Notes: generated by a model from the sequence alone, not told the origin. A stretch of DNA of 64,000 nt from an uncultured delta proteobacterium (GCA_963811315.1 CAWERH010000039.1:4501-68500), one strand, 5' to 3'; shown: positions 7,135-52,562, counted from the first letter of the stretch. Translations and numbers: made by a program.

Positions 7135-7220
7135 TGTCATGATGAGCGCGAGCGAAGCATCCAGGTTCGCAGTGCCGTTCAGTTAAGAGAAGCCTGGATT
7201 CCTCGTGCTCATGGCAATGA
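7135..7220. repeat. MITE/REP-like imperfect hairpin element (termini GTCAT...ATGAC)
   Basis: tgtcatgatgagcgcgagcgaagcatccagg ... cctggattcctcgtgctcatggcaatgac form an ~85-nt inverted repeat. It is intergenic, between the selenoprotein gene and its partner gene. Confidence 0.55.
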
Positions 7221-7303
7221 CGGAAGGGCGACTTACAGTTGGCACAGTCAGGTTATTCTGGACGAAAGGTGACGGCGGGATTTGAGGGAACGTTTACGCA
7301 AAA

Positions 7304-8357
7304 ATGGCAGAACAACCACTTCAAGCGGAACGATTCGAAATTCCCGACGACCTTTGGGCGGCGCAGGCTTTTTTTGAAGAAAAGGGATGGTCCGATGGTT
7401 TGCCGATCATTCCGCCGACGGAAGAGCGGGTGGCGCAGATGCTCGGCGGCGACGACCCGAAAACCGGACGAGTTGATCGGCGCGGTGCCGCCGCGCTGGG
7501 CGCAGGCGAGCGTCGAGAAGATCGCGATCAATGGCGTCATGGCCGGATGCAAACCGGAGTACATGGCAACCCTGATTGCCGCGGTCGAAGCGATCACCGA
7601 TCCCAAGCTCAATCTTTATGCGTTGCAGGCGACCACGGGCGGACCGGCGGTGATGATCATCATCAACGGCCCGATCCGCCATAAGCTCAACGTCAACGGC
7701 GGGCCCAACGCGTTGGGCGAAGGGTGGCGCGCCAACGCCACCATCGGCCGGTTCGTGCAATTGATCAAACGCAATATCGGCGGCTCCTATCCGGGCACCA
7801 CCTGCAAGGCGACGCTTGGCTGGCCGGGAAAATATTCGATCTGCGTCGGCGAAAATGAAGAGGCGAGTCCGTGGGAACCGCTGCACGTGGAGCGCGGTTT
7901 CAAAGCCGAGCAAAGCACGGTGACGGCGATCAGCGCCGATGCTTCAATACGAGCGTCGGATTTGGACAGCTCGAAAGCGGAAGGCGTGCTGATCAATTTC
8001 GCGCAGAAAATGGACGGCCCGTCCGGGCCGGAAGCGATCATGGTCATTTGCCCGGAGCATGCCAAGATCATTGCCGATGACGGCTTCAGTAAGAAAGACG
8101 TGCAGAAATTTATCTGGGAGCGCGCCGCGTACCGGATGAAGGATTTGCCGGACGAGACCTTCGCGCAACGGGTCAAACGGCGCAGCGATCTGAAGCTCAC
8201 CCGCGACAGCATCATTCCGGTGACCGATAGGCCGGAGGACATACTCGTCATCGTCGCCGGCGGTGACGGCTCGCAGTCGCAGTACATCCACGTCTGGGGT
8301 CAGAGCACGCCGGAAGGCGGGTCGACGCGCAGCGTCACGAAACTCATACGGGATTAA
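7304..8357 (+). CDS. conserved hypothetical protein genetically linked to the UGSC selenoprotein (partner, copy 1); frameshift at the A4 run 7460-7463
   Basis: MAEQPLQAERFEIPDDLW..GLPIIPPTEERV (ORF 7304) continues in ORF 7239-8357 as ..ELIGAVPPRWAQASVEKIAINGVMAGCKPEY...GWPGKYSICVGENEE... It is paralogous to 19885-20967 along its whole length. Confidence 0.7.
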
Positions 8358-8405
8358 GAGTTCCAAACGTTCAAAACGTTCCAGTCGTTCCAAGTCGTTT
8401 CGGAT
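8358..8405. repeat. stop-proximal short tandem repeat array (GTTCCAAACG / GTTCAAAACG units)
   Basis: gagttccaaacgttcaaaacgttccagtcgttccaagtcgtttcgg lies immediately after the stop at 8357. Related arrays occur at 25249, 39516, 45745 and 57760. Confidence 0.4.
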
Positions 8406-8418
8406 AACGCATTGTCCG

Positions 8419-9440
8419 ATGTCTTACCCTCGCCCGCTTGCGGGAGAGGGAAGGGTGAGGGCGTGCATCGACGCGTTATTAATTATCAGCCTGCTTTTGA
8501 GCTTTGTTGTCCTGGTAGCGAAATTTGCTTCGCCGCCGACAAGCTGCGCATCAGTTACTCGGGCACGACGACGAGCAACGCGCTTCTTTGGGTGACCAAG
8601 GAAGCGAAACTTTTTGACAAGAACGGCATCGACGCGGAAGTGCTTTATCTGGCGGCGTCGCTCGGCCAGACCGCGTTGATCGCGGGCGAGACCCAGTTCG
8701 CGGTCTACACGGGACTGCTGATGACGCCAACCCGCCTGCAAGGCGCCGACGTTACGATGATCGCCGGGTTTCTAAATTATCTGGTCTCGCGCTTGGTCGT
8801 GCGTCCGGACATCAAGACCGCCGCGGATTTAAGAGGCAAACGTTTGGCCGTGTCGCGTTTCGGCACGGCGTCGGATTTCGGTACCCGCTTGATGGTGTCC
8901 AAGCTCGGTTTGAATCCCGACACCGACGTCACGATCTTGCAGATCGGCGACACGCCCACCCGGGTCGCCGCACTGATGGCCAAGAGCGTCGACGGCGCGA
9001 TCTTCGATCCGCCCGATCACAAAAAGGCCATCGAAAACGGCGGCCGCATCATGATGAACTTGGAGGAAACCGCGATTCCGTATCAGCATGCCGGTTTGAT
9101 GACGACGCGAAAGTACATCGCCGCCCGGCCGGACATCGTTCGGCGGGTGGTCAAAGCGATTGTCGAGGGCGCCGCGGTGGTGCGCAAAGATCCGGAGACC
9201 ACCAAGCGGGCGCTGTCGATCCGCATGCGCATCAAAGATCCCAAAGACCTCGAAGAAACCTATCAGCAGCTGCGCGGCTTCACGCAAGCCAAACCCTATC
9301 CAAGCCTGGAAGGTTTCAAAGCGATCTTGAACGATTTGTCCAAGCGCGTGCCCGCGGCGAAAAATGCCGATCCGAAAGATTTTGCCGATCTCCGGTTCGT
9401 CGAAGAACTGGATAAGTCGGGTTATATCGATGGACTCTAA
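8419..9440 (+). CDS. NMT1/SsuA-like periplasmic substrate-binding protein; frameshift near 8545
   Basis: The signal-peptide frame MSYPRPLAGEGRVRACIDALLIISLLLSFVVLVAKFA shifts into AADKLRISYSGTTTSNALLWV... The gene is a tandem paralog of 9494-10471. Confidence 0.75.
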
Positions 9441-9470
9441 AGGCGTGAGGCTTGAGGCGGGAGGCTAGAG
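9441..9470. repeat. 7-mer tandem array AGGCGTG AGGCTTG AGGCGGG AGGCTAG
   Basis: It follows the TAA stop at 9438-9440 directly. Confidence 0.4.
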
Positions 9471-9493
9471 TCGTGTGGACAAAGACGTATTTT

Positions 9494-10471
9494 ATGCTTG
9501 AAAAGTTAACGCCGATTCTCACTGTAATTCTGGCTGCAGTTTTGTTGCTGCGCTCCGCATCGGCCGGCGCCGCCGATAAGATTCGTATCGGTTACTCCGG
9601 CGCGACGGTCAGCAACGCGATGCTCTGGGTGACCGACGAAGGCAGACTGTTTCAAAAAAACGGCATCGATCCGCAAATCCTCTATTTGCAAACGACGCTC
9701 GGACAGACGGCGATGATCGCCGGTGAAATCGACATGTGCGTCTACTCCGGCAGTCTGCTCTCGGCGGCGCGCTTGCAGGGAGTCGACGTGGTGATGGTCG
9801 TAAGTTTTCTCAACAAGCCGCTCTATCGGCTGGTGGTTCGCCCCGAGATTCGCACGGTCGCCGATCTCAAGGGAAAACGGCTCGGCATCACGCGCTTCGG
9901 CACTGTCACCGATTCGATGTCCCGGCTCCTGATCAACAAACTCGGACTCGATGCCGAGAAAGACGTTTCTTATATTCAGGTCGGTGATGTGCCAATCCTG
10001 TTAGCTTCCTTGTCGTCAGGCAAGATTATCGACGGCGCGATCATTCAGCCGCCTTATTATTTGAAGGCGGTGGCCACCGGCATGCGCGTTTTGGTGAATA
10101 TGCAAGAGATGGACATCCCGGTCCAACAAACCGGGCTCAATACCACGCAGAAGTTCATCGCGAAAAATCCCGATGTCGTGCGGCGGGTAGTCAAGTCGGT
10201 GATCGAAGGGATCCATCTGATGCGCACCAATCCCGCCGTGGCCAAGCGGGCGCTCTCCAGGCGCATGCAGATCAAAGATGAAAAAGAGATCGAAGACACC
10301 TATCAATTGCTGAAGAGTTTCGTGCAGATCAAGCCGTATCCGACTCTGGAAGGCTTCAAAACCATTTTCGAAGATCTGGCGAAAAGAGTTCCGGCGGCAA
10401 AGAACGCCAATCCCAAGGAATTTGTCGACACCCGGTTTATCGAAGAGTTGGATAAGCTCGGGGTTTATTGA
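9494..10471 (+). CDS. NMT1/SsuA-like periplasmic substrate-binding protein
   Basis: MLEKLTPILTVILAAVLLLRSASAGAADKIRIGYSG... Intact. The ATG at 9494 is preferred over the ORF-tool start at 9452 because it gives a proper signal peptide. Confidence 0.85.
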   Translation: MLEKLTPILTVILAAVLLLRSASAGAADKIRIGYSGATVSNAMLWVTDEGRLFQKNGIDPQILYLQTTLGQTAMIAGEIDMCVYSGSLLSAARLQGVDVVMVVSFLNKPLYRLVVRPEIRTVADLKGKRLGITRFGTVTDSMSRLLINKLGLDAEKDVSYIQVGDVPILLASLSSGKIIDGAIIQPPYYLKAVATGMRVLVNMQEMDIPVQQTGLNTTQKFIAKNPDVVRRVVKSVIEGIHLMRTNPAVAKRALSRRMQIKDEKEIEDTYQLLKSFVQIKPYPTLEGFKTIFEDLAKRVPAAKNANPKEFVDTRFIEELDKLGVY

Positions 10472-10524
10472 CGCATTGGAGCGCCAGTGATACGCGATGC
10501 TTGACGGATAATTGGGGAGGAACG

Positions 10525-11520
10525 ATGTTGAGAATACAAAGATCGCTGATGGGTGTCGCTTTGATTGTGGCTTTCGCCACTCCTGCCCTGGGGCAAAGCC
10601 TGCCCAAAGTCCGCGCCGCCTACACATCCATAAGCATCCAATTCGATGCGGTTTACATCATGAAGGAGCTCAACCTGCCGCGGAAATACGGCTTGGATGC
10701 CGAAATTCTTTTTGTGCCGGTGAGTTCGCGCGCCGTGCAGGCGGCGCTCGCGGGCGAGATTCAATTTATCACCAGTGGCGGCGTGGCCAATATCAATGCG
10801 AACGTCACAGGCGCCGATTTCACCGGGCTTACCGCGACACTCAATACTTTTGTCTTCAAGGTCTTCGCGAGCCCGGAGATCAAAAAGCCTGAGATGTTAA
10901 AGGGCAAGAAGGTCGGCATTTCCCGTCTCGGCGGCGCCAGCGATTTTTCTATTCGCTATGCGCTAAATTACTGGGGTCTCGTCCCCGACAAAGACGTTGC
11001 CATCATCCAGGTGGGCGGCGAACCGGAGTCGCTTCTGGCGCTACAAAACAAAGCCGTGGACGCGGCGATCTTATCGGAACCGTTTGCAAGCCTGGCAAAG
11101 CGCAATGGCTCAGTGCTGCTGGCTGATTTAAGTCAGCTCGGCGTGCCTTACACGATGCACGGCTTCGGGGTGCGCAAGAGTTACATTCAGGCCAATCGGG
11201 ACGTTGTCGTCCGATTCATGAAAGCCTATCTCGAAGGCATCTATGTTTTCAAAACCAACAAGGACATTGCGTTGAACGTCCTGAAAAAATATACCCGGCA
11301 GGACGATCTTTCCCTCGTACAAGTGGCCTATGAGGAAATGTCCCAGAAGCTTATCCGCAGAGTCCCGTACCCCAACCGCGAAGGGATTCAGACGATCATA
11401 GATCAGCTCGCCAAGACCCGGCCGGAAATGAAAAATCTCAACCCCGGCGACTTCATCGATCCGTCGATCTTGAAAGAAATCGAGGACAGCGGGTTTATTA
11501 AAAAGTTGTATGGAAATTAG
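10525..11520 (+). CDS. NMT1/SsuA-like periplasmic substrate-binding protein
   Basis: ATG at 10525 after SD GGAGG: MLRIQRSLMGVALIVAFATPALGQSLPKVRAAYTS... Intact. Confidence 0.85.
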   Translation: MLRIQRSLMGVALIVAFATPALGQSLPKVRAAYTSISIQFDAVYIMKELNLPRKYGLDAEILFVPVSSRAVQAALAGEIQFITSGGVANINANVTGADFTGLTATLNTFVFKVFASPEIKKPEMLKGKKVGISRLGGASDFSIRYALNYWGLVPDKDVAIIQVGGEPESLLALQNKAVDAAILSEPFASLAKRNGSVLLADLSQLGVPYTMHGFGVRKSYIQANRDVVVRFMKAYLEGIYVFKTNKDIALNVLKKYTRQDDLSLVQVAYEEMSQKLIRRVPYPNREGIQTIIDQLAKTRPEMKNLNPGDFIDPSILKEIEDSGFIKKLYGN

Positions 11521-11616
11521 CGGTCGATGTCTCCATGCCTGATCCAGGATCTAATCCTGAATCTGGCCCAAACAAACTAAATCTTTGACTTACTCTGACT
11601 GTGAGATTCGGCGGCA

Positions 11617-12597
11617 TTGATGTCAAATCTAAAACTTACTCTTGCGTGTTGGGACTACGATCGTACCCGGCCGCTCATCGATGGTCGGGTGAAAGCTGAA
11701 GGAATCGATCTCGACATAAAAATCATGCGACCCCGCGAAATGTTTCCTCGGATGCTGGAAAAAAAAGAGTTTGAAATTTCCGAGCTATCGCTTGGTTCAT
11801 TATGTCACCCTCAAAGGCCGCGGCAGCTGTCCGTTCGTGGCGGTGCCCGTGGCGTTATCCAAGATCTTCCGCCACTCGTGTATTTACGTGCGGACGGATG
11901 CGGGCATCAGGAGCCCCCAGGATCTGCGGGGCAAGCGGGTGGGAACTACTCAGCTCGGGTCCACCGGAATTATTTTCATGAACGGCATGATGCAACACGA
12001 GTACGGCGTAGGTCTGGAAGATATCCACTGGTTTATTGGCGGATTGGATTCCCCGACCACGAGACCGGTGATTCCTCTGAATCTGCCGGATAAAATTAAG
12101 GTTGACTTTCTTCCTTCGGATCAAACTTTGGAGGGGATGTTAGAAGCCGGACAACTCGACGCTTTGTTCGCGCTGTACATTCCCTCGATCTTTCAGAAAG
12201 GGCTCGCCGCCGCATAGCGCGCCTGTTTCCGAACTATTATGAAGTCGAACAGGATTATTATCGTCGCACACAGATCTTTCCGATCATGCACACCGTCGTG
12301 GTGCGCGACGATGTTCATCGTGAGCATCCATGGGTGGCTGAAAGTATGTACAAGGCTTTCTGCGAGGCTCGGGATCTAGCCGTCGACGGACTTTACGACA
12401 CGGACGCGCTACGACTCTCGCTTCCTTGGCTCATCAACCATCTTGAGGAGACCTGGAAAGTCTTAGGGAAGGATTTCTGGGCCTACGGTTTGGAGCCCAA
12501 CCGCCCGGCTTTAGAGGCGATCGGCCAGTATGTCTACGAGCAGGGTTTCTCGCCCCGCGCAGTCAGCCCCGACGAGCTGTTCGCGCTGAATGTGTGA
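11617..12597 (+). CDS. cytoplasmic SBP-fold protein resembling 4,5-dihydroxyphthalate decarboxylase (PhtD-like); two frameshifts (near 11800 and 12205)
   Basis: Three ORFs (11617-12093, 11771-12217, 12286-12597) concatenate into MSNLKLTLACWDYDRTRPLIDGRVKAEGIDL...SYVTLKGRGSCPF...MHTVVVRDDVHREHPW... There is no signal peptide. Family assignment is from memory of the LTLACWDYDRTR N-terminal signature. Confidence 0.5.
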
Positions 12598-12669
12598 GGA
12601 CTCTTCTGCCAAGCATTCCTATTAACTCATGTTGTAAAACAATACTCATAGGTAAGTAGAGGAACATTA

Positions 12670-13521: not shown

Positions 13522-13621
13522 ACCCGCGGTAAACCTGTTGCCACAGCGATAGCGCGGCAGACTGGCAACCAAAATGAGAAGAGATTGACCATAAAGGGCG
13601 CAAAGATCACAAAACAAAATG

Positions 13622-13645
13622 GAGGGCGGGTTTTCCAACCCGCCT
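13622..13645. terminator. GC-rich stem-loop GGCGGGTT-TTCC-AACCCGCC (same palindromic element as 54810-54837, opposite loop orientation)
   Basis: Perfect 8-bp stem with a tetraloop, 100 nt after the hydrolase stop. No U-tract follows. Confidence 0.3.
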
Positions 13646-13808
13646 TGGATGACGTGACAAGATTTGCGTGAGCCGCGAAACTTTTGAAGCATAGAGTGCG
13701 GAGAACATGGAGGGCAATTCCGTAACTTTGAGACTCGCTGTCCTCTGCGTCTCGGCGGTGAATCATCCGAGTTCGAGTTTATTTTCTAGAAATTTTCAGG
13801 AGATGGTC

Positions 13809-14881
13809 ATGAAAAAAAGTTTTTCGCCGCCGTGATTTCACTTCTGGTTTGCACATGGGCCGTCGCCGCGAGGCCAACGTCCGCGCAGGAGACCGCTGGC
13901 CAGATTTTGGCGAAGCTTGAAAAACTTTCCACCGAGAACCGGCAGAAAGTCCTGGTCGAGCGCGCAAGGAATGAGAAAGAAGTCACTTTCTATAGCTCCC
14001 TTCAGACCACCGATGCAGAACCCTACGTGAAGGCGTTCAACAAGCGCTATCCTTTTATCAAGGTCAATATCTACCGTGTCTCCGGGCAGAAACAGGTAAT
14101 CATGATCCAATCGGAATTTAACGCCGGCAGGCATGCCTTCGACATTACCAATGCCTCGGCTGCTCAAGCCTTTGGCATCAAGAAGACCGGCGCGTTGGAC
14201 CCGTATCAAAGTCCCCAGCGGCAATACTTTTCCACCGCGCATAAAGACAAGGAAGGATACTTCACCCCGACTTATATCGTCCCGGTGGTGCTTGGCTACA
14301 ACACCAATATGGTCAAGCGCAACGAATTGCCCAAACGCTATGAAGACCTGCTGGAGTCCAGATGGAAGAGTAATATGATCTTGGACATCGAGGAGTTTCC
14401 CTGGTTTGCGGTGTTACTCAAACACTATGGCCGCGAAAAGGGTTTGGACTACATGAGACGGCTGGCCAAACAGGATATCCAGATGGGGCGGGGACGCACC
14501 ACCCAGGCGCAGCTCATCAGCGCGGGCGAGCGGGCCGTCGGCATAGCGCTCAACAGCTCTTCCGTGCTCGACTTCAAAACTCGCGGCGCGCCAATCGACT
14601 GGACCATTCTCGATCCGTATTACGCCAAACCCAATATGCTGATGTTTGCGCGCCACGCGCCTCACCCGCATGCGGCGGCGCTATTGATCGACTGGACGCT
14701 CTCCGAGGAAGGGCAGTCGCTACTGGCGAATTCGGGTTACGTGGTAGCGCGCAAGGGCGTGAAACAAAGCACCCCGGCATTATTGGAAAAGGAGAGCTTT
14801 CTCGCCGATCCCGACTTTATTGGCCCGATCTTGGAAGAGACCGGCAGAGACTTTCGCAGCGTATTCACAGGCGGACGCTAG
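13809..14881 (+). CDS. extracellular solute-binding protein family 1 (Fe3+/ABC-type periplasmic binding protein); frameshift in the A7 run 13812-13818
   Basis: Adding one A gives MKKKFFAAVISLLVCTWAVAARPTSAQE... (signal peptide) followed by ..YPFIKVNIYR...LPKRYEDLL... Paralogous to 34193-35246, 35443-36451 and 42190-43242. Confidence 0.75.
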
Positions 14882-15061
14882 ATTTCGGTCCCGGAAGTTC
14901 GATGAAAAAGTTGATCACGCCTTAGCCGTCATACCTGCGGAAGCCGGTATCCAGATGGTTTTGAAATTCCTGGATTCCGGGTCGCCCCCGGCCTTCGCCG
15001 GGGTTGCCCGGAATGACGATCGATTTAATGTTGCTGGGCCAGGACGCTAGATTTCGGCCAA
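14874..15061. mobile_element. MITE-like hairpin element (14928-15033, termini GTCATACC..GGAATGAC) flanked by perfect 16-bp direct repeats GGACGCTAGATTTCGG (14874-14889 and 15046-15061)
   Basis: The direct repeat includes the TAG stop of the upstream SBP gene. The internal sequence is an imperfect long hairpin of the same family as 7135, 49717 and 52488. Confidence 0.5.
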
Positions 15062-18114: not shown

Positions 18115-18213
18115 ATTTTTAATCCTTCCTTCGAAAGCGCAGTTATATCATAAGTCAGCTCTGCACTCAGGCGTTCTTTCTTCTATGCTGAGCAACTGTC
18201 GAAGTCATCTCGC

Positions 18214-18276
18214 GAAGATTTTCAGCTAATGCAAAGACGAGATTCTTCGCCTTCGGCTCAGAATGACATTGAGTCA
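18214..18276. repeat. degenerate MITE/REP-like hairpin copy
   Basis: gtcatctcgcgaagattttc...gagattcttcgccttcggctcagaatgac. The left arm lacks the CTGAGCCGAAG segment. Confidence 0.4.
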
Positions 18277-24079: not shown

Positions 24080-24348
24080 CTGTGGTGCGCCAAGTCGTTG
24101 ATAGGGCAAGCGCGCCACGATGTGGTCGAAGGCGGACAAAGCGAAAAATCCCTCGCTTGACGCTGTGTCGTGATCTCGACTTCTTAAGTGGTCACGAAAC
24201 GCGAGATTCTCGCTAACGCTCAGAATCTTAGTGCACGTTTGGCAACTGCGACACGTCTCTGCTCGGCATGACAAACAAGTAAATATTCCAGTCCCGGAGA
24301 GAAGGAATTCGATAAAAGTAAAGCCCTGACTATAATTGCTAAGCGCGC

Positions 24349-26540: not shown

Positions 26541-26620
26541 CCGTCGAGGATAGAGGATCGAGGATCGAGGATAGCGTCCGGTCGATCTTCGCATCCTCCA
26601 TCTTCTATCCTCGGCTGAAA
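26541..26620. repeat. 8-mer tandem array (GAGGATAG/GAGGATCG x4) paired with its inverted complement, forming an imperfect hairpin
   Basis: cgaggatagaggatcgaggatcgaggatag...catcctccatcttctatcctcgg. Confidence 0.45.
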
Positions 26621-27859: not shown

Positions 27860-27957
27860 AATTAAAAATTAAAAAGGCAAAATTAAAAAAGCGGGAACCC
27901 GGAACACTTTGGACCGATTCGTAGATTATTTGAATTTTTAACTTTTAATTTTTAATT
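27860..27957. promoter_or_regulatory. AT-rich inverted repeat between the tandem CoA-transferase genes (arms AATTAAAAATTAAAA..., ~40-nt spacer)
   Basis: aattaaaaattaaaaaggcaaaattaaaaaa ... ttgaatttttaacttttaatttttaatt. The arms share 15/15 nt at their outer ends. Local GC is about 25% in a ~63% GC context. Confidence 0.4.
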
Positions 27958-27959
27958 CT

Positions 27960-29171
27960 ATGTCTCCTAGTCAGATTTTAAAAGGCGTGCGCATTCTCGC
28001 TTTCACCACGGGCTACGCCGGTCCTTACGCCGGCAGGCTGCTTGCGGCCTACGGCGCGGAGGTGATCAAGATCGAGTCGAGGAAGGGCGGGCTCGATACC
28101 TTTCGCCATTACGGCCAGCACAAGGATATCGACGCCGCGCCGCGTTTCATCGAGTGCAACCTCGGCGTGCGCTCGTTTGCGGTCAATCTCAAACATCCGA
28201 CCGGCGCCAGACTGGTTCGCGAACTGGCCGGTAAATCGGATGCGATTCTGCAAAATTTTCGTCCTAGAGTGTTGGATAAGCTGGGTTTGGGTGACGACGA
28301 ACTGAGAAAACTTAATCCTAAACTTGTGGTTGTGAAATTGCCGGGCTTCGGTTCCGAAGGGCCGAAGAGCGGTTACGGCACTTGGGGATTTAATCTTACG
28401 GCTTTCTCCGGCATGACCTATCTGTGGAATCATCCCGAGCAGGATCGCCCCATCGGCAGTCAGGGCGTCTATCCCGATCACTTGGGTTTCGTTATGGGGC
28501 CGACGCTGCTGGTCGCGGCGCTGCTGAACAGCCGGCGTAGCGGCAAGGGCGTGACCATCGATTTGGCGCAGATCGAAGGCACGGCGTACACGCTCGGCGC
28601 GACTTACCTGGAAACCTCGGTGAACGGCGACGATCCTCAGCCGCAGGGAAATCACTACGCGCTCGCCGCGCCGCACGGCTGTTACCGTTGCCAGGGCGAT
28701 GACCGCTGGTGCGTTATTTCGGTGCGTGACGACGATGAGTGGCGCGCTTTCTGCCGCGTCATCGGCAGGGCGGAATTGATCAGCGACGCGCGTTTTACCG
28801 ATCTGCAAACCCGACTGGGGCATCGGACTGAGCTCGACGACATTGTCAGCGCGTGGACGCAAGCGCGGCCTGCGGAAGAGGTCATGACCCAGATGCAATC
28901 CGCCGGGGTGCCTGCCGGTGTGGTGCAGAGCGGCGCGGACCTGCTCAAGGATCCTCAACTGCGCCACCGCAACTATTTTTCGCCATTCGCCGATTCGTTG
29001 ATCGGTCCGTTTGAAATCCCGCGCAGTGGTTTCCTGTTCCGCGGCTTGAACGAAGAACCTCTGCGCTTACCCAATCGACTCGGCGCAGACAATGAGCCAA
29101 TTCTAACCGATTTGCTCGGTTATGATCAGGCAACGATCGAGCAATGGCGCCAGGAAGAAGTGCTCACATAA
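27960..29171 (+). CDS. CoA-transferase family III (CaiB/BaiF/BbsF-like)
   Basis: 403 aa, intact: ..VRILAFTTGYAGPYAGRLLAAYGAEVIKIESRKGG... Confidence 0.85.
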   Translation: MSPSQILKGVRILAFTTGYAGPYAGRLLAAYGAEVIKIESRKGGLDTFRHYGQHKDIDAAPRFIECNLGVRSFAVNLKHPTGARLVRELAGKSDAILQNFRPRVLDKLGLGDDELRKLNPKLVVVKLPGFGSEGPKSGYGTWGFNLTAFSGMTYLWNHPEQDRPIGSQGVYPDHLGFVMGPTLLVAALLNSRRSGKGVTIDLAQIEGTAYTLGATYLETSVNGDDPQPQGNHYALAAPHGCYRCQGDDRWCVISVRDDDEWRAFCRVIGRAELISDARFTDLQTRLGHRTELDDIVSAWTQARPAEEVMTQMQSAGVPAGVVQSGADLLKDPQLRHRNYFSPFADSLIGPFEIPRSGFLFRGLNEEPLRLPNRLGADNEPILTDLLGYDQATIEQWRQEEVLT

Positions 29172-36469: not shown

Positions 36470-36522
36470 TTGTCATCCCGAGCGAAAGTGCGGATCTAGA
36501 TTTCTCGCTGCGGTCGAAATGA
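36470..36522. repeat. MITE/REP-like hairpin (short copy)
   Basis: gtcatcccgagcgaaagtgcggatctagatttctcgctgcggtcgaaatgac. Confidence 0.45.
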
Positions 36523-36577
36523 CGACAGAGCACATGTTTCGGGTACGCCAAGGACTAAAGCATAGAATGAGGTAAAC

Positions 36578-43340: not shown

Positions 43341-43372
43341 CTGGATTCCCGCTTAAAGCATGCGGGAATGAC
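43341..43372. repeat. partial MITE/REP-like arm (..GCGGGAATGAC) with a TCCCGC..GCGGGA hairpin
   Basis: ctggattcccgcttaaagcatgcgggaatgacg. Confidence 0.3.
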
Positions 43373-43495
43373 GACCTTCGGATAGATGTGCCCCTGTTTG
43401 TGAAGCCCGAGTTCTAACGTACTAAGGAAGCAGTTGCGGCGCATCGGCATGATTGAGCCGACGCGCCGCAAGCAGAAGAGCTGTCGATCGGATTA

Positions 43496-44479: not shown

Positions 44480-44848
44480 AAGAACTTTGCCTCCTTAGAC
44501 TAGCATTCGAAGTCTAGGCTGGAAAAAGCTAATGTCAATAGCAACGTCAAATGTGGGTTAGATAAGCAGAATCTGACAGAAGTGAACGGAGGCGACAACA
44601 TTAGGGTTACCCTCCCTAGCTGACATCTTGGGGTTGCTATGATCCAATAAATACTCTGCACCTACAGTATAGCTTTTTCGATTGACAGCGCTAACGCACG
44701 GTTGTTATGTACCCAATTCGTAGCCGGTGCGTAGATTGGTCAATGTACATTTTGGGTATGTCGGTTAACGCCGCGCTTGTCCACGGGATGAGAAAATAAT
44801 TGCTGCGTGAATGACAGCGACGCGGCAAGGCAAGAGGATCGGTTTTCC

Positions 44849-45703: not shown

Positions 45704-45744
45704 CAGCTGAGTTAGCAGCGGTCATTTGCCATCGGCAGCCGCCA

Positions 45745-45800
45745 AATCACTTTTTCGTTCCAGCCGTTCAAAACGTTCCAATCGTTCCAGTTGTTTCGGA
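45745..45800. repeat. GTTCCA/GTTCAAAACG-type tandem units ending in the CCAGTT-GTTTCGG-AACTGG hairpin
   Basis: ccagccgttcaaaacgttccaatcgttccagttgtttcggaactgg after the stop at 45703. Confidence 0.4.
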
Positions 45801-45821
45801 ACTGGGCGCGCCAAGTCTCGG

Positions 45822-47551: not shown

Positions 47552-48415
47552 TCAGCGTCTCCACACATCGATCTTCGGCCGCCACGCGGTGAGCCGGCGT
47601 TCGGCGAAGTTGATGATGCCGTATTCGATGACGATCATCGCGACGACGAAAGTAAGCGTCCAGGCGATGACCCCTTCCATGTTGAAGACTTGATAGGATT
47701 TCATGACCTGATAACCGACGCCGTTGCTGGTGCCGAACATTTCGACAACTACGACGACTTTCCAGGCGAGTCCGAGACCGTAGCGGGTGGCGGCGAAAAT
47801 ATTGGGCACGAGCTGGGGCAGGATCACCTGCGAAATCTTCATCCATTTGGTGAAGTGAAACACATGGCTCATGTCCATCAGCTCTTTGTCGAGGGACTTT
47901 ACGCCGGCCCAGATATTGATGACCAGCATCGGAAAGATGGTCACGGTGACGGCGAAGTACGGCGAGAATTCGTTGATGCCGAACAGCATCACCGCGATCA
48001 GCGCCCACATGAGCCCCGGGATCGTCAAGCCGAGCACGACGAGAGGCTGAAAAAATCGTTCGCCCATGACCACGGTGCCCATGTAGATCCCGACACCGAT
48101 GCTGAAAAACATGGCGATCACCGAGCCGACAAAAACCCGTCGCAGGCTCTGAACCATGTGAAAGAAAAACGTGCCGTCGGTAACCAGTCGAATCGCTTCA
48201 TTGACGGTGCTGGCTGGGCTAGGCAACAAACGCGGATAGATCAGATAGAGCAGCCACCAAATTGCGCCGACGCTCGTCACCGCGAGCAAGGGCGGGAGGC
48301 CGCGCAGCGCGAGCTCATAGAGGAAGGATCCGCCATGTCCCGGAAATTCGTCGGCGTGATTGATGCCCGAAGGCTGTCCGGTCAGCGCCGCTTGATGATG
48401 ATGATCCAACGCCAC
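47552..48415 (-). CDS. ABC transporter permease (BPD_transp_1, SsuC/TauC-like)
   Basis: Six predicted TM helices. It directly abuts the ATPase start, and the three genes together form the only complete transporter operon in the window. Confidence 0.8.
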   Translation of the reverse strand: MALDHHHQAALTGQPSGINHADEFPGHGGSFLYELALRGLPPLLAVTSVGAIWWLLYLIYPRLLPSPASTVNEAIRLVTDGTFFFHMVQSLRRVFVGSVIAMFFSIGVGIYMGTVVMGERFFQPLVVLGLTIPGLMWALIAVMLFGINEFSPYFAVTVTIFPMLVINIWAGVKSLDKELMDMSHVFHFTKWMKISQVILPQLVPNIFAATRYGLGLAWKVVVVVEMFGTSNGVGYQVMKSYQVFNMEGVIAWTLTFVVAMIVIEYGIINFAERRLTAWRPKIDVWRR

Positions 48416-48555
48416 AAAATCATTACTGCAACAGAACCGGGAGCGCTGTCAATGCGAAGCGGCTTCAGTTTAGCGCCGCTTGTCGTTGACTTGAAGCTTT
48501 TGCTTCGATTACGCTCTCGGTCGTTGCACGAGCCAAATTGTCGGAGGTGACGGTT

Positions 48556-49678
48556 ATGGCGAATTCGAACAATCCTTTCGGGCCGCGGCCGATGAATGAA
48601 GTGAAAGAAGAGTTGCTCGGCCGCGCCAAGGAAAATCGCAATCCGTTTCTCTACACGATCTTCGAGGAAGTCGCGCCGGTGATCGCGGGGCTCGATTCTG
48701 TCGATCGCGAAGCTTGGGCGCGCGGGTTCAGCGCGCTGGCGGCGCCGCATGAAGAACGCGCGGCGAAAGCGGCAGCGGCGGGGGACACAGACACCGCGCG
48801 AAGAGAATATTTGGTCGCGTACGATTGTCATCATGTCGCGCGCTATCCAGCGCCCAACTCGCCGGGCAAGTTGGCGGCCTATAGAAAGTCCCAGGAAAAT
48901 TTTCTCAAAGCAGCGCGCTATTTCGATCCGCCGCTGGAGCGGGTCGACATGCCGTTCAACGGAAAATCGGCTGAAGGCAAAGTTTCCGTTGGCCTATTGC
49001 GCAAACCGAAAGGCGCGACGCAAGCCGCCGGTCGTGGTGCTTTGGGGCGGCATCGACGCGTTCAAGGAAGAGCGGCCGAGCGATCGTTATCTGCAAGCGG
49101 GAATGGCAACGCTCGCCATCGATATGCCGGGCGTGGCGGATGCCCCACTGGCGGGCTCAGAGAACGGCGAGCGGCTGTGGGATGCGGTCTTCGACTATAT
49201 CGCCGGGCGCGCCGATTTAGACGTTGGCCGGGTTGGCCTGCACGGTGGCAGCACCGGCGGTTACTGGGCAACCAAGGTCGCGCACACGCACGCCAACCGG
49301 CTGCGCGCGGCGGTCAATCAGGGAGGGCCGGCGCACTTCGCTTTTCAGGCGGATTGGATCATCAAGGCGCAGCGCGGCGAATATCCCTTCGAGCTCGCCG
49401 AAACCTTGGCGTGCGCGTTTGGCCGCTCCAGCGGCGAAGAGTGGATCGAGTACGCGCCTAAACTATCGCTCCTGATCAAGGAATTCTCGATCGGCCGTGC
49501 GCGCCGCTGCTGTGCGTCAACGGCGTCAACGATAGCGTGTTTCCGATCGCCGATATGCATCTCTTGCTCGAACACGGCAGTCCAAAGGCCGCGCGTTTCT
49601 ATCCCGGCGGCCACATGGGTGGCGGCGATTCACAATCGGTGATTGTCGCGTGGTTGAAGGAGAGATTGTCGGCGTGAT
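48556..49678 (+). CDS. alpha/beta hydrolase, FrsA/DUF1100-like esterase; two frameshifts (near 49010 and 49500)
   Basis: ATG 48556 after SD GGAGG: MANSNNPFGPRPMNEVKEELLGRAKENRNPFLY.. | ..PPVVVLWGGIDAFKEERPSD..VGLHGGSTGGYWA (GxSxG).. | ..PLLCVNGVNDSVFPIADMHLLLEHGSPKAARFYPGGHMGGG.. Confidence 0.7.
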
Positions 49679-49716
49679 CGCGGCGGACAAAATTCTTCTT
49701 GTACGTTTATTGGGAT

Positions 49717-49804
49717 GTCATCCTGAGCCGCAGGCGAAGGATCTGCTTCTGAGATAGAAAGACGCGAAAGCAGATTCTTCGTCGCGCGGCTCCTCAGAAT
49801 GACA
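49717..49804. repeat. MITE/REP-like hairpin, full copy (GTCATCCTGAGCCGCAGGCGAAGGATCTGC...GCAGATTCTTCGTCGCGCGGCTCCTCAGAATGAC)
   Basis: ~88-nt imperfect inverted repeat. The 3' flank gaatgacaccgtctatg..aaatgat is shared with the copy at 52488-52590. Confidence 0.55.
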
Positions 49805-49859
49805 CCGTCTATGTTGAAATGATGCGTGGGGTCACAGCGTGATGCGTGCGGAGTAGTGA

Positions 49860-50336
49860 TTACTTGCGCTGCAGACGGTCGAGGTTTTGCTGGGTTTGAT
49901 TGCGGCGGATTTGGTCTTGCAGGGAATCGATTCGCTGCTGGCGCTGCAAATTGTCAATTTGCTGTTGCTGGCGCACCGGATTCGACTCGCGCTGGATACG
50001 ATTGATCTGCTGGTCAGTCTGTAAGCGCTCGAGCTGCTGATCGTTTCTGTTCTGATCGAGGTCGCGCTGAATCTGTCCGGCTTGTGGTTGTGACTGAGAT
50101 GGTTCGCTCTTCTGGTTTTTGATTTGATCGAGTTGTTGCTGCTGCCGCTGGCTTTCCTGGTCGCGCTTGAGATTTTCGATCTGTTCCTGGCGCTGCGCCG
50201 CTTTGGCTTTCTCTTCCTGGCGCGCTTTGGCTTGCTCCTTCAATATTTGTTCGACCTGGTCCGTGGCAGCCGACGCGTTCACAGCGAACAGTACGATAAA
50301 AAGCGCGCTGGCGGCTGCTGTCGCAACGAATCTCAT
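49860..50336 (-). CDS. secreted Gln/Arg-rich low-complexity (coiled-coil-like) protein
   Basis: MRFVATAAASALFIVLFAVNASAATDQ (signal peptide), then ~130 aa of QxxQxQRxQ periodic repeats (..QQQQLDQIKNQ..QIQRDLDQNRNDQQLERLQTDQQINRIQRE..). Confidence 0.5.
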   Translation of the reverse strand: MRFVATAAASALFIVLFAVNASAATDQVEQILKEQAKARQEEKAKAAQRQEQIENLKRDQESQRQQQQLDQIKNQKSEPSQSQPQAGQIQRDLDQNRNDQQLERLQTDQQINRIQRESNPVRQQQQIDNLQRQQRIDSLQDQIRRNQTQQNLDRLQRK

Positions 50337-50353
50337 ACAATTATCAAAGCAAA

Positions 50354-51294
50354 CTAACGGGGTGATGGCAACATCGAGAAGTCTACTAATTTCTCGGGGT
50401 CAAGATTCTCCGGGAGCGGCCGCTCGTCACGCAGGAGCGCTAGGTAGCCGCGCACTTTTTTCAAGTCGATGGCGCCGTTGGGCGAAAGAATGCCCATGAT
50501 CGTTTCGTAGGATCTGTCTGCTTCGCTGCGGCTGATCTTAAAGCGTACCTCAATCATCCGGACGGTCTCGGCGCGGTTGGCGCGTTGCCAAGCGATGGCG
50601 TCCATGACCGCGGCGATGGTCTTTCGAATCCGCTCTCGATTGTTGCGAATCTCGTTCTGAGAGGTGAACAAGCCGACGTAGGGAATATCCGCCAAGTCAC
50701 CGAGAAAGAGGAATTTCTTGTAGCCCAGGGATACTGCCTTCTCGTCAAACGGCGGGCTCAGGACCGCGCCAACCACTTGATTGCTCGTCAGCGTCGCGAA
50801 GCTGTTGGCCGTTCCACCGGTGGTGAGAAGACCGACCTGCTTTTCGTCCAAGCCAAGCTTCTTTAATCCGGCGCGCGCGAAATAATACGGCGAAGAACGG
50901 ATGTCTGAGATGGCAATTTTCTTGCCCACCAAATCTCGAGCGCTGGAAATCTCCGCATTGGTGACCAATACCCACGGCGTGTCTCATAGAGTGACAGAAC
51001 GACTACGAGCGGCAGGCCCGCCACCGCCGCGTTGATTGCGGCTTGGGGTGAAGTGAAGAAATGGATGTTGCCGTTCATTACCGCCTGCGGGCCGATGGCG
51101 CTGCGCATCTGGATATAGTCGACGTCCAAGCCCGCTCTCGTGAAAAAGCCCTGTTCCTTCGCGACCTCGAAAGGGAGCGTGGAGACCGCCGAAGAGGGAT
51201 AGCCGATACGAACCTTTTGTGCCGGATCAGCAGGCCAGGCGACGCGCGCACTAAGGACAGAGGCGATTGTTAAGATCAGCGTCAAGGATTTCAT
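50354..51294 (-). CDS. NMT1/SsuA-like periplasmic substrate-binding protein; frameshift near 50965-50990
   Basis: MKSLTLILTIASVLSARVAWPADPAQKVRIGYPSS..VVLSLYETR | ..VTNAEISSARDLVGKKIAISDIRSSPYYF... It lies 25 nt downstream of amidohydrolase 51319-52452 on the same strand. Confidence 0.75.
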
Positions 51295-51318
51295 GGGCCT
51301 GACGATTTTGCCGGATTA

Positions 51319-52452
51319 TTACATTCCCGTCATTCCGTAATAGGTTGCGCAGTTGTCCCAGAGAATCTTTCGCTTGTCCTCGTCGGTGATTGGCAGTTGC
51401 AAGAAGCGCTCGACCGCTCTCGGATATTTCGTATCGACATGGGGAAAGTCCGTGGAGAAGACCAAGCGCTCGTTGCCGCAGAAATCGATCGCGTATTTCA
51501 CCGGATCTTCGTCGCATTCCACCGAGGCATAGCATTGCCGTTTGAAATAGTAACTTGGCGGGTTTTTGAGCTGCGGCGCCCACTGGTCGCCGTAAAGCTC
51601 CCAATGTTCATCGAGACGCCACATGAGAAAGGGCAGCCAGCCGCAGTTGCCTTCGAGAAACGCCACCCGCAGTTTCGGATGACGGTCTAAGATTCCGCCG
51701 CCGCAGAAGCTTCCGACCGCAAGCATTTGTTCCACGGGATGGGAAAAGGTATGGCGCAGCATGAAATCGTAACCGAATTGCTCGCCGACCTGGCGCGCCG
51801 CCGAGTTGTTGGACTCATGGAAGCCGAGCGGCACTCCGAGATCTTCGAGCGCGGACCAGAGCGGCTCATAGTACGGCTCGTGCCAGTTGTGGCCGTTGAC
51901 GATGTTGGCGCGCAGAAAGATCGCGCGAAAACCCAACTGTTCGACGCAGCGGCGCGTCTCGGCGATCGCATCGTCGATGTTGAAGGGCGATACCATGCCG
52001 GCGCCGATGAGCTTGCGCGGATCCGCTTGGCAGAATTCATAGAGCCAGTCGTTGTAGGCGCGCGCCAGCGCGGCGGCGAATTCGCCGTCCAAATCCGGGA
52101 TACTGAGCACGTTCAGCCCGCGGCTCGGATAGAGAATCGCCAGATCGATTCCTTCCTCCGCCATTGCGTCGAGCTGCACTTGCGGCGACCAGCCGCGCTC
52201 ATTGTGAGTCTTAAAAAGTTTCTGGTTTTTGTGAAAAATATGTCCCGGCGGGGGAAGTGTTCCCGGAGGCGGGTCGACGGGGCGGCCCCAGGCTCTGCCG
52301 TCGGGACCGATCATGCGAAGGTCGCGCACATGGTCGGTCGTGCCGATGGGCGCGAGATGTTTAAATCTCTTGTCGATGTAGCGCGGCCAAAGATCGGCCG
52401 GCTCGAGGATGTGCATGTCGCTGTCGAGAACTTTGAAACCGTTGTTGGCCAT
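51319..52452 (-). CDS. amidohydrolase-2 family protein
   Basis: MANNGFKVLDSDMHILEPADLW...LGFHESNNS...VFSTDFPHVD.. ATG 52450-52452 after SD GGAGG. Confidence 0.85.
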   Translation of the reverse strand: MANNGFKVLDSDMHILEPADLWPRYIDKRFKHLAPIGTTDHVRDLRMIGPDGRAWGRPVDPPPGTLPPPGHIFHKNQKLFKTHNERGWSPQVQLDAMAEEGIDLAILYPSRGLNVLSIPDLDGEFAAALARAYNDWLYEFCQADPRKLIGAGMVSPFNIDDAIAETRRCVEQLGFRAIFLRANIVNGHNWHEPYYEPLWSALEDLGVPLGFHESNNSAARQVGEQFGYDFMLRHTFSHPVEQMLAVGSFCGGGILDRHPKLRVAFLEGNCGWLPFLMWRLDEHWELYGDQWAPQLKNPPSYYFKRQCYASVECDEDPVKYAIDFCGNERLVFSTDFPHVDTKYPRAVERFLQLPITDEDKRKILWDNCATYYGMTGM

Positions 52453-52487
52453 AGATCCTCCTACCCGAATAAAAAACCCCATGCATG

Positions 52488-52562
52488 TCATGCTGAGCAA
52501 AGCGAAGCATCTCGCATTCCTGAATGTTTAGGTTGAGATTCTTCGGCTGCGCCTCAGAATGA
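52488..52562. repeat. MITE/REP-like hairpin, full copy (GTCATGCTGAGCAAAGCGAAGCATCTCGC...GAGATTCTTCGGCTGCGCCTCAGAATGAC)
   Basis: ~75-nt imperfect inverted repeat, intergenic. Confidence 0.55.

What the first reader, a model, noticed from the sequence alone, without database searches (positions are those of the whole stretch)
7135..52562. Family of MITE/REP-like long hairpin repeats with conserved termini GTCAT[CT]C[CT]GAG...CTCAGAATGAC
There are eight copies. Full copies are at 7135-7220, 14928-15033, 36470-36522, 49717-49804 and 52488-52562. Degenerate or partial copies are at 2811-2858, 18214-18276 and 43341-43372. All are intergenic. Each arm carries a sub-motif GAGCGAAGCGAAGAATC-like and its complement, giving an ~80-110-nt imperfect hairpin. 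The copies at 49717 and 52488 share an extra 3' flank (gaatgacacc..tatg..aaatgat). These structured elements would terminate or stabilise transcripts. They produce spurious small ORF calls in the track (for example 6926-7186 and 14820-15050).
Basis: seen in the sequence. Interest (0 to 1): 0.55.

Follow-up and report, generated by a model that had tools for sequence, protein, structure and literature searches.

The report
Ssn-type hairpin repeats, mostly paired
The repeats are real, but they belong to a known bacterial family of small DNA hairpins (CGTC/TGTC-tagged REPs, also called Ssn-related motifs, like Neisseria dRS3/NTS), here mostly as inverted pairs in a probable Binatia genome, so this is a new host and sequence variant, not a new kind of element.

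Summary
The window has nine intergenic sites with about 17 units. A strict unit pattern matches 10 times against 0.79 expected. Four long hairpins fold better than all 200 shuffles.

The basic entity is a 24-48 nt unit, not the 80-110 nt hairpin: (T/C)GTC, a palindrome that starts AT and ends AT, then C. Its stem is kept by compensatory changes. The long hairpins are inverted pairs of units around unrelated spacers.

This anatomy matches the CGTC-tagged REPs of Di Nocera 2013 and the NTS/Ssn-related motifs of Chenal 2025. A 94-aa GIY-YIG nuclease, SsnA, binds those motifs as single-stranded DNA hairpins and cuts just upstream.

The window's main variant (GTCATYCTGAG..CGAAGRATC) occurs in most bacterial phyla. 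It brackets Ssn homologues in eight loci elsewhere. It does not fit the published SRM search string.

The window has no Ssn gene and the source genome is unavailable, so a cognate nuclease is inferred. A collinear relative (76-85% nucleotide identity) lacks the repeats at all three comparable sites.

There are no target-site duplications, GTAG tags or T-tracts. MITE, RAYT-REP and terminator readings are not supported.

Verdict: a new member of a known kind, of low to moderate interest.

The parts
2758..2805 (-). Unit with a long loop: GTCATCTC..GAGATC. It lies back-to-back with the unit at 2822, 16 nt away.
   Evidence: Model R1 E=0.0034. Sequence read. The same long-loop variant (..CTCAGGGTAGACTCCG..) recurs in L006, L012 and L033.
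2822..2847 (+). Single unit: GTCATTCCGAGCGGAAGCGAGGAATC.
   Evidence: R1 E=1.1e-6. Strict pattern match.
7136..7221 (.). Inverted pair: unit 7136-7161 (+) and unit 7197-7221 (-), each with one stem defect.
   Evidence: R1 E=0.0041 and 0.042. Long-hairpin fold z -3.44.
14928..15017 (.). Inverted pair: unit 14928-14951 (+) and a long G+C-rich unit 14973-15017 (-), both ending ATCCAG.
   Evidence: Strict pattern match for 14928-14951. Both units found by the permissive unit finder. R1 E=0.042 for the minus-strand unit. Pair fold z -3.73. The minus-strand unit folded as DNA gives z -3.76.
18204..18267 (.). Intact unit 18241-18267 (-) with a decayed partner at 18204-18240.
   Evidence: R1 E=8e-7 for the unit. 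The whole stretch does not fold better than shuffles, z -0.88.
36472..36523 (.). Compact inverted pair with almost no spacer: units 36472-36496 (+) and 36499-36523 (-).
   Evidence: R1 E=0.11 and 0.001. Fold z -1.9.
43344..43372 (-). Single unit of the Neisseria NTS type: GTCATTCCCGCATGCTTTAAGCGGGAATC, followed by CAG.
   Evidence: The only window match to the published SRM search string. DNA fold z -4.13. R1 E=0.38; the model was trained mainly on the other unit class.
45721..45748 (+). Possible single unit: GTCATTTGCCATCGGCAGCCGCCAAATC.
   Evidence: Strict pattern match only. Not found by R1. Preceded by G rather than T or C. Doubtful.
49717..49803 (.). Inverted pair: units 49717-49743 (+) and 49773-49803 (-), with a 29-nt spacer.
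   Evidence: R1 E=1.6e-5 and 1.8e-5. Fold z -5.94. Absent at the collinear site of L121.
52487..52563 (.). Inverted pair: units 52487-52511 (+) and 52537-52563 (-). It ends 35 nt upstream of the amidohydrolase start codon.
   Evidence: R1 E=2.1e-6 and 9.3e-6. Fold z -3.46. A decayed orthologous pair is present in L126-L131. The pair is absent in L121 and L124.
55337..55419 (.). Degenerate inverted pair of the NTS-like class: 55337-55364 (+) and 55392-55419 (-).
   Evidence: Sequence read. R1 E=1.6. The window has 197 nt where L121 has 16 nt.

Best explanation
These are copies of the CGTC/TGTC-tagged REP superfamily, also called Ssn-related motifs. Neisseria dRS3/NTS are the best-known members.

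The working part is a unit of 24-48 nt: a T/C-GTC tag, a palindrome that begins AT and ends AT, a C, and a short tail. In the commonest form here the stem holds five Watson-Crick pairs, a tandem G.A/A.G, and a GC/GC clamp on a GNA loop: GTC-ATTCT-GA-GC-GAA-GC-GA-AGAAT-C.

Most units sit as inverted pairs around an unrelated spacer of 2-60 nt.

Proposed mechanism: the unit acts as a hairpin in single-stranded DNA, on the strand that reads GTCAT. A small single-domain GIY-YIG nuclease of the Ssn family binds it and nicks a few bases 5' of the tag.

In an inverted pair the two nick sites fall on opposite strands just outside the pair. Units that bracket ssn genes have the same geometry. The pairs therefore look like gene-less relatives of a unit-ssn-unit element, gained and lost over evolutionary time. 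Any effect on transcripts would be secondary.

Shown here: unit anatomy, covariation, enrichment, intergenic placement, wide distribution, linkage of this unit class to Ssn genes in other genomes, and gain/loss between relatives.

Taken from the literature: binding and cleavage by SsnA.

Inferred: that this genome encodes an Ssn that uses these units, and that Ssn is what spreads them.
For: Anatomy: 16 of 17 units start GTCAT (the other GTCAC), 16 are preceded by T or C, and 16 have C after the palindrome. PMC11893778 reports exactly these positions as critical: GTC for cleavage and the 3' C for binding.

Covariation: of 61 units chosen without regard to the stem, 53 have perfectly complementary triplets of 8 kinds. 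The inner GC/GC pair changes to AC/GT or GT/AC. On 78 units, 62 cells changed on both sides against 14 in shuffles, and slid controls pair only 16-51%.

Distribution: 120 loci from most bacterial phyla.

Linkage to Ssn:
- 7 of those 120 loci carry a 93-110 aa GIY-YIG ORF bracketed by units within 100 nt.
- These ORFs are 40-56% identical to the 94-aa gonococcal SsnA orthologue, which itself sits among NTS pairs.
- The catalytic residues Y6, Y17 and E64 are invariant.
- In 32 loci chosen by protein alone, 10 have flanking units. Density is about 0.9 per kb near the gene against 0.09 per kb further away.

Pair statistics: 72 inverted +/- neighbours against 24, 12 and 4 for the other arrangements. 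This agrees with the reported predominance of one inverted (HH) dimer class among CGTC REPs; I did not map my +/- orientation onto that nomenclature.

Gain and loss: L121 is collinear at 76-85% nucleotide identity and lacks the repeats at all three shared sites. Model R1 finds 11 units in the 64-kb window (E<0.05) and 2 in 73 kb of relatives (E<0.1).
Against: There is no Ssn or GIY-YIG gene in the 64-kb window or in the relatives' loci L121-L131. The source genome is not available.

Only one window unit fits the published SRM search string.

Single units of the main class fold no better than shuffles with DNA parameters (z -0.2 to -0.7, and +2.3 for 49770-49806). The hairpin therefore rests on covariation, not on energy.

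GIY-YIG nucleases hydrolyse DNA and are not known to join strands, so a role in spreading the units has no demonstrated chemistry.

The orthologous pair in L126 is decaying. That argues against strong selection at each individual site.
Confidence: 0.75

Rival explanations
1. Classical MITEs: short non-autonomous transposons whose terminal inverted repeats are cut and pasted by a DDE transposase, leaving target-site duplications.
For: The two units of a pair are inverted, like terminal inverted repeats. Copies are dispersed and polymorphic. One pair, 55337-55419, is flanked by GAACC on both sides.
Against: 67 of 72 pairs have no duplication. Only 6 of 70 pairs have identical arms, and spacers are unrelated between copies. 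Units also occur singly, back-to-back and in tandem. No transposase-like protein family recurs near the units. The largest protein cluster covers 9 of 120 loci, and the only unit-adjacent one is the GIY-YIG ORF.
Confidence: 0.04
2. GTAG-type REPs or REPINs, mobilised by a RAYT (an IS200/IS605-like tyrosine transposase).
For: The overall design is the same: a short tagged palindrome, mostly in inverted pairs that can form one long hairpin, intergenic, with copy number varying between relatives.
Against: The tag is T/C-GTC, not GTAG. Di Nocera 2013 found no RAYT gene flanked by CGTC repeats. The gene found bracketed by these units is a GIY-YIG nuclease.
Confidence: 0.05
3. Primarily RNA elements: hairpins in transcripts that terminate transcription or protect 3' ends.
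For: Four pairs give stable RNA hairpins. Five sites lie after 3' ends or between co-directional or convergent genes. Di Nocera 2013 argues that many REPs are transcribed.
Against: No terminator-like pattern was found at the two copies scanned, and no T-run follows the others by eye. No Rfam family matches. Stem variation is Watson-Crick with only 2 G-U cells among 546. Several sites lie upstream of genes or between divergent genes. The two units of a pair each keep their own stem at the cost of mismatches in the long hairpin, for example ATGCT against AGAAT at 52487/52563. SsnA does not bind RNA.
Confidence: 0.1
4. Local duplications or chance palindromes with no family identity.
For: The 49717 and 52487 copies share a one-sided flank.
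Against: There are 10 strict matches against 0.79 expected. The same unit occurs in 120 loci from other phyla. Spacers and other flanks are unrelated.
Confidence: 0.01

Closest known systems
Ssn-related motifs (SRM), including the Neisseria Transformation Sequence (NTS, CGTCATTCCCGCGMAVGCGGGAATCYRG), and the SsnA GIY-YIG single-stranded DNA nuclease (Chenal et al. 2025, PMC11893778)
   Same: GTC tag, a palindrome running from AT to AT, C after the palindrome, and a Y-N-N tail. Orientation matters. Copies are intergenic and clustered. Units bracket the small GIY-YIG gene. The unit at 43344-43372 is a near-canonical NTS.
   Different: Most window units carry a GAG..CGAAG interior with tandem G.A pairs, and they fail the published degenerate search string. 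The host is a probable Binatia genome. No ssn gene lies in the window. Cleavage was not tested.
CGTC-tagged REPs, families CGTC-1 to CGTC-4 (Di Nocera et al. 2013, PMC3733652)
   Same: The tag is CGTC, often changed to TGTC. The stem starts with AT. There is a short unpaired tail. Inverted dimers predominate, with variable spacers of 20-100 bp. Copies are mostly intergenic, and copy number differs between relatives.
   Different: That survey listed five phyla and reported no associated enzyme. Loops there are 4-5 nt, whereas many units here have longer or nested interiors. The figure with the family consensus sequences is not held, so I could not assign these units to a numbered family.
Neisseria dRS3 repeats and intergenic mosaic elements (NIMEs)
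   Same: Palindromes of the ATTCCC-N8-GGGAAT type occur in inverted pairs around 50-150 bp of other sequence. I saw this directly in the gonococcal locus L132.
   Different: In Neisseria the copies form large arrays around surface-protein genes. Here there are isolated pairs or single units, about one site per 7 kb.
REPIN-RAYT systems (GTAG REP doublets and their domesticated tyrosine transposase)
   Same: The logic is the same: a single-copy nuclease gene bracketed by its own hairpin repeats, plus many gene-less inverted doublets that form long hairpins and act through single-stranded DNA.
   Different: The tag differs (GTAG) and the enzyme fold and chemistry differ: HUH/Y1 with a covalent intermediate, against a hydrolytic GIY-YIG nuclease.

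Membership tests
Ssn-related motif / NTS (Chenal 2025) | GTC immediately 5' of the palindrome (needed for cleavage) | tested here: met
   All 17 listed units start GTC: 16 read GTCAT and one reads GTCAC.
Ssn-related motif / NTS (Chenal 2025) | A hairpin-forming palindrome | tested here: met
   53 of 61 independently anchored units have complementary triplets of 8 kinds. 90.5% of cells are paired against 79% in shuffles and 16-51% in slid controls. Energy alone is not significant for single units of the main class.
Ssn-related motif / NTS (Chenal 2025) | C immediately 3' of the palindrome (needed for binding) | tested here: met
   16 of 17 window units. 86% of 337 units in other genomes.
Ssn-related motif / NTS (Chenal 2025) | Match to the published search string HGTCWYN(0-2)YYVSBRHN(0-5)WNVSBRGN(0-2)RNCYNB | tested here: not met
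   Only 43341-43373 (-) matches, against 0.34 matches expected by chance per window. The canonical GTCATTCTGAGCGAAGCGAAGAATC does not match. The string is a search tool derived from 29 genomes, not a definition of function.
Ssn-related motif / NTS (Chenal 2025) | This unit class brackets Ssn-family genes (single-domain GIY-YIG of about 94 aa) | tested here: met
   Seen in L004, L025, L088, L095, L100, L108 and L109 and in L162. These are other genomes, not the source genome.
Ssn-related motif / NTS (Chenal 2025) | An Ssn gene in the same genome | not testable with these tools
   None in the window or in relatives' loci. The source genome is not in the collections. A profile search was saturated, with 7993 of 8000 candidates passing, and named no Binatia protein.
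Ssn-related motif / NTS (Chenal 2025) | Strand-specific cleavage of single-stranded DNA just upstream of the motif | not testable with these tools
   This needs a biochemical assay.
CGTC-tagged REP (Di Nocera 2013) | Terminal tag CGTC or TGTC | tested here: met
   The base before GTC is T in 10 and C in 6 of 17 units. In other genomes it is T in 67% and C in 19%.
CGTC-tagged REP (Di Nocera 2013) | Stem of 8-9 positions starting with AT; loop of 4-5 nt | tested here: inconclusive
   AT comes first in all but one unit. The commonest form has 9 stem positions if the tandem G.A is counted, with a 3-nt loop. Many units have longer interiors.
CGTC-tagged REP (Di Nocera 2013) | Short unpaired 3' tail, consensus CCA | tested here: inconclusive
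   The tail is CCAG in 6 units and CT-N-N in 9 others.
CGTC-tagged REP (Di Nocera 2013) | Mostly inverted dimers with variable spacers; intergenic | tested here: met
   72 +/- neighbours against 24, 12 and 4 for the other arrangements. Six of nine window sites are such pairs. All sites are intergenic.
GTAG REP / REPIN-RAYT | GTAG tag at one end | tested here: not met
   No unit carries GTAG at either end.
GTAG REP / REPIN-RAYT | A RAYT gene flanked by the repeats | not tested
   I did not screen the window for Y1 transposases. Di Nocera 2013 reports no such association for CGTC repeats.
MITE | Target-site duplication and copies alike along their whole length | tested here: not met
   67 of 72 pairs have no duplication. 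Spacers are unrelated, and arms are identical in only 6 of 70 pairs.
Intrinsic terminator | G+C-rich stem followed by a T-run | tested here: not met
   No terminator-like site at the 49717 or 52487 copies. By eye, no T-run follows any copy.
Any Rfam family | Score at or above the curated threshold | tested here: not met
   No matches at gathering thresholds over the whole window. Only chance-level matches at E of 1.8 or worse around two copies.

The most novel reading that the evidence does not exclude
The inverted pairs may be non-autonomous elements that an Ssn-type GIY-YIG nuclease spreads or maintains through single-stranded DNA. That would be a hydrolytic-nuclease counterpart of the REPIN-RAYT partnership.

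The GAG..CGAAG unit class is missed by the published search string. It is present in candidate-phyla bacteria, Omnitrophota, Chloroflexota, Acidobacteriota, Clostridia, Bacteroidota and Binatia. It would then be the most widespread form of this system, and the system's reach has been underestimated.
Probability: 0.3. Interest if true: 0.6.

Novelty: new member of a known kind. Interest (0 to 1): 0.3.

Why it matters
For annotation, these units explain spurious small ORFs and over-long 5' gene extensions. Examples are 6926-7186, 14820-15050, and the extensions of 2056-2889, 51319-52500 and 54785-55375. They should be masked as repeats.

For biology, this adds a soil lineage (probable Binatia) and a very widespread unit variant to the Ssn-motif family. 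The published degenerate search string misses that variant. Surveys based on the string probably undercount both the motifs and the genomes in which Ssn nucleases have targets.

What these nucleases and their hundreds of genomic target hairpins do outside Neisseria is still open. Candidates are restriction of incoming single-stranded DNA, selfish spread, and genome structuring. A lineage with clear gain and loss between close relatives is a useful place to study the question.

Tried and rejected
- Literature search by sequence strings returned only primers and vector sequences.
- Three exact-protein look-ups to find the source contig returned nothing on record.
- Rfam at gathering and at E-value thresholds gave nothing relevant.
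- Clustering all ORFs of 90 aa or more from the 120 loci, to find an associated transposase, gave no recurrent transposase. The only unit-adjacent cluster was the small GIY-YIG ORF.
- tblastn and hmmsearch for Ssn in the window and in relatives found none.
- A profile search for a Binatia Ssn was saturated, with no Binatia name among the 120 proteins listed, so it was uninformative.
- A sequence search of the Protein Data Bank with an Ssn homologue found no match.
- The paper's supplementary tables, which might list this unit variant, are not held.
- DNA-parameter folding of single units gave the expected hairpin as the best fold, but it was not better than shuffles for the main class. I do not use energy as evidence for the unit.
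- Considered by eye and dropped: a hammerhead ribozyme core (there is no CUGA-N-GA arrangement), a kink-turn (there is no 3-nt bulge beside the tandem G.A), integron attC sites, and CRISPR repeats.
- Target-site duplication: one pair has GAACC on both sides, but the survey shows this is not general.

Full report

They are 49717-49803, 14928-15017, 7136-7221 and 52487-52563, then 36472-36523 and 18204-18267.

Against 200 dinucleotide shuffles the first four have z of -5.9, -3.7, -3.4 and -3.5, and no shuffle folded as well. The other two have z of -1.9 and -0.9 and are not significant.

Actual lengths are 52-90 nt.

**The unit.** Each arm of a long hairpin is itself a small hairpin: GTC, then AT plus three bases, an interior, the complementary three bases plus AT, then C. 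The triplets differ between units but stay complementary: TCT/AGA, CCT/AGG, GCT/AGC, TCC/GGA, ACC/GGT.

In several pairs the two units keep their own stems at the cost of mismatches in the long hairpin. An example is ATGCT on the left against AGAAT on the right at 52487/52563. So the unit is the conserved entity.

A strict unit pattern matches 10 times in the window against 0.79 expected, with a maximum of 5 in 200 dinucleotide shuffles.

**Distribution.** They come from Nitrospirota, candidate-phyla bacteria, Bacteroidota (including cultured Lacinutrix, Flavobacterium, Mucilaginibacter and Pedobacter), Acidobacteriota, Chloroflexota, Desulfobacterota, Clostridia, Helicobacter, Verrucomicrobiota, Planctomycetota, Omnitrophota and others.

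The commonest unit is GTCATTCTGA-GCGNAGC-GAAGAATC. Read as a hairpin, it has five Watson-Crick pairs, a tandem G.A/A.G, and a GC/GC clamp on a GNA loop. Longer variants keep the same design.

**Covariation.** I anchored units on features that do not involve the outer stem and left out the scanned TCT/AGA class. Of the remaining 61 units, 53 have perfectly complementary triplets of eight kinds. The inner clamp changes GC/GC to AC/GT or GT/AC.

On an alignment of 78 distinct units:
- 90.5% of cells pair, against 79% in shuffles and 16-51% when partners are slid.
- 62 cells changed on both sides, against 14 in shuffles.
- Only two cells are G-U.

The three variable stem positions in that alignment were selected for complementarity. 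The independent evidence is therefore and the two inner pairs.

With DNA energy parameters the expected hairpin is the best fold for each unit. For the main class it is no better than shuffles (z -0.2 to -0.7, and +2.3 for 49770-49806). The two G+C-rich units reach z -4.1 and -3.8. The model does not credit sheared G.A pairs or GNA loops, so I rest the hairpin on covariation.

**Enumeration in the window.** A covariance model built from those 78 foreign units was run with filters off. It finds 11 window units at E<0.05 and four weaker ones.

Together with direct reading this gives nine sites:
- 2758-2805 (-) with 2822-2847 (+), back to back
- 7136-7221
- 14928-15017
- 18241-18267 (-) with a decayed partner
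- 36472-36523
- 43344-43372 (-)
- 49717-49803
- 52487-52563

45721-45748 is a doubtful extra. A weak hit at 51325-51371 lies inside the amidohydrolase gene and is probably chance.

All nine sites lie outside likely genes, or only under mechanical 5' extensions of ORFs. This rests on a crude map with about 81% coding sequence and on Pfam domain positions.

The ORFs 6926-7186 and 14820-15050 exist and read through repeats.

**Identification.** The resemblance to Neisseria dRS3 (ATTCCC-N8-GGGAAT) led to Chenal et al. 2025 (PMC11893778).
- Their Neisseria Transformation Sequence is CGTCATTCCCGCGMAVGCGGGAATCYRG.
- SsnA, a 94-aa single-domain GIY-YIG protein, binds it as a hairpin in single-stranded DNA only and cuts a few bases upstream.
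- The three bases before the palindrome (GTC) matter most for cutting. The C after the palindrome matters most for binding.
- Double-stranded DNA, RNA and the reverse strand are not substrates.
- ssnA genes are flanked by such motifs in many phyla.

Di Nocera et al. 2013 (PMC3733652) had catalogued the same elements as CGTC-tagged REPs.
- The tag is often TGTC.
- Stems start with AT.
- There is a short tail.
- Inverted dimers predominate, with spacers of 20-100 bp.
- Neisseria dRS3 is their family CGTC-1.
- They found no associated transposase.

The window units match this anatomy. All 17 have GTC, 16 have T or C before it, and 16 have C after the palindrome. The tails are CCAG or CT-N-N.

**Test of the link for this unit class.**
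- Seven of the 120 loci carry a 93-110 aa ORF bracketed by units within 100 nt.
- The three of these ORFs I scanned match Pfam GIY-YIG at E of about 2e-14 to 3e-17.
- The seven ORFs are 40-56% identical over their full length to the 94-aa gonococcal orthologue. I recovered that orthologue from a record filed among plasmids, and it sits among NTS pairs.
- Y6, Y17 and E64, the residues mutated in the paper, are invariant.
- In 32 loci chosen by protein similarity alone, 10 have flanking units. The usual arrangement is a plus-strand unit on the left and a minus-strand unit on the right. Density is about ten times higher near the gene than 500 nt away. One locus (L162) has the GAG..CGAAG class.

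**Limits.**
- Only 43341-43373 fits the published degenerate search string. The canonical unit of the main class does not.
- The window has no Ssn homologue, and neither do the relatives' loci L121-L131.
- The source genome is not in the collections.
- A profile search was saturated and named no Binatia protein.

Membership in the repeat superfamily is therefore well supported. That an Ssn acts on these particular copies is an inference.

**Source and polymorphism.** The amidohydrolase at 51319-52452 (-) has homologues of 83-93% identity. One, at 85%, is named Candidatus Binatus sp., so the window is probably from Binatia.

L121 is collinear with window 49000-57500 at 76-85% nucleotide identity in the genes. 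It lacks units at all three repeat sites:

| Window site | Spacer in window | Spacer in L121 |
|---|---|---|
| 55337 | 197 nt | 16 nt |
| 52487 | 163 nt | 79 nt |
| 49717 | 201 nt | 89 nt |

At the 52487 site the relatives differ:
- L126-L131 carry an orthologous but decaying pair.
- L124 and L121 have none.
- L122, L123 and L125 carry a different repeat made of GTTCAA-type 9-mers.

L122 has a unit where the window has none. The model finds 11 units in the 64-kb window (E<0.05) and 2 in 73 kb of relatives (E<0.1). The elements are gained and lost on the time scale of species divergence.

**Architecture and mechanism.** Among 337 units in other genomes, neighbours within 150 nt are +/- in 72 cases, -/+ in 24, and direct in 16.
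- 67 of 72 pairs have no target-site duplication.
- Only 6 of 70 pairs have identical arms.
- Complementarity usually runs 1-4 nt, and up to 7 nt, past the units into the spacer. Part of this comes from the conserved tail.

In a +/- pair, Ssn nicks would fall on opposite strands just outside the pair. Units bracketing ssn genes have the same geometry. The pairs thus look like gene-less relatives of a unit-ssn-unit element, as REPINs relate to RAYT genes.

The chemistry of any spread is unknown, because GIY-YIG enzymes hydrolyse DNA and do not join it.

**Rivals.**
- A DDE-type MITE is excluded by the lack of duplications and the unrelated interiors.
- GTAG-REP/RAYT fails on the tag.
- A primarily RNA role is not supported. 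There is no T-tract and no Rfam match. Covariation is Watson-Crick only. Placement relative to genes is mixed. A secondary effect on transcripts cannot be ruled out.
- Chance and local duplication are excluded.

**Verdict.** This is a real, dispersed hairpin repeat family that belongs to a kind described in 2013 and given a partner enzyme in 2025. What is new is the host lineage and the observation that the very widespread GAG..CGAAG unit class escapes the published search string. Interest is low to moderate.

Noticed in passing
window 8360-8400, 45757-45800, 57766-57810 (other strand); also L122, L123, L125 near 9840-10000: A second intergenic repeat family made of tandem 9-mers, GTTC[CA]A-N-N-C. 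The pattern TTGAACGGCTTGAAC with up to 3 mismatches gives 14 hits against 2.35 expected. In relatives, inverted arrays of these 9-mers form long hairpins at the very site where the window has the 52487 pair.
   Followed up: partly
window 55716-55818; L121 6890-6975: A 35-nt-arm hairpin (GAGGAAAGGATGAAGGATAAAGG.. and its complement) lies directly upstream of a conserved 79/80-aa gene. It is conserved in the relative L121, unlike the neighbouring repeat pair. It may be a regulatory leader or a terminator.
   Followed up: partly
window 27860-27957 and 26545-26613: Two further imperfect hairpins lie just upstream of the genes starting at 27960 and 26646. One is AT-rich (AATTAAAAATTAAAAAGG arms). 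The other has GAGGAT-repeat arms. Neither is related to the family studied.
   Followed up: no
window 55332-55424: The degenerate pair 55337-55419 is flanked by GAACC on both sides. The empty site in L121 reads CCTGAATTG. This could be a 5-bp duplication, but 67 of 72 pairs elsewhere have none.
   Followed up: partly
window 49804-49826 and 52564-52587: The two minus-strand units at 49773-49803 and 52537-52563 share, by eye, about 17 of 22 bases upstream of the GTC tag (ATCATTT..CAT..GGT). That is the stretch where an Ssn nick would fall. It suggests either a sub-family with a longer conserved 5' part or a copying event that included the flank.
   Followed up: partly
window 24202-24226: A fragment resembling the 3' half of a unit (GAGATTCTCGCTAACGCTCAGAATC), model E=1.3. 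It is probably a decayed remnant.
   Followed up: no
L069 7195-7343 (Fibrobacter MAG): Units appear inside what looks like a serine-rich coding stretch. This agrees with published reports of intragenic copies of this repeat family.
   Followed up: no
L025, L042, L044: In a Gracilibacteria, a Lachnospiraceae and a Helicobacter MAG the units form dense arrays, spaced 75-210 nt apart, rather than isolated pairs.
   Followed up: no
L132 (NZ_CP119140.1): A 2.17-Mb Neisseria gonorrhoeae record is filed as a plasmid in the plasmid collection. It is evidently a chromosome. Its ssnA orthologue has no annotated feature there.
   Followed up: no
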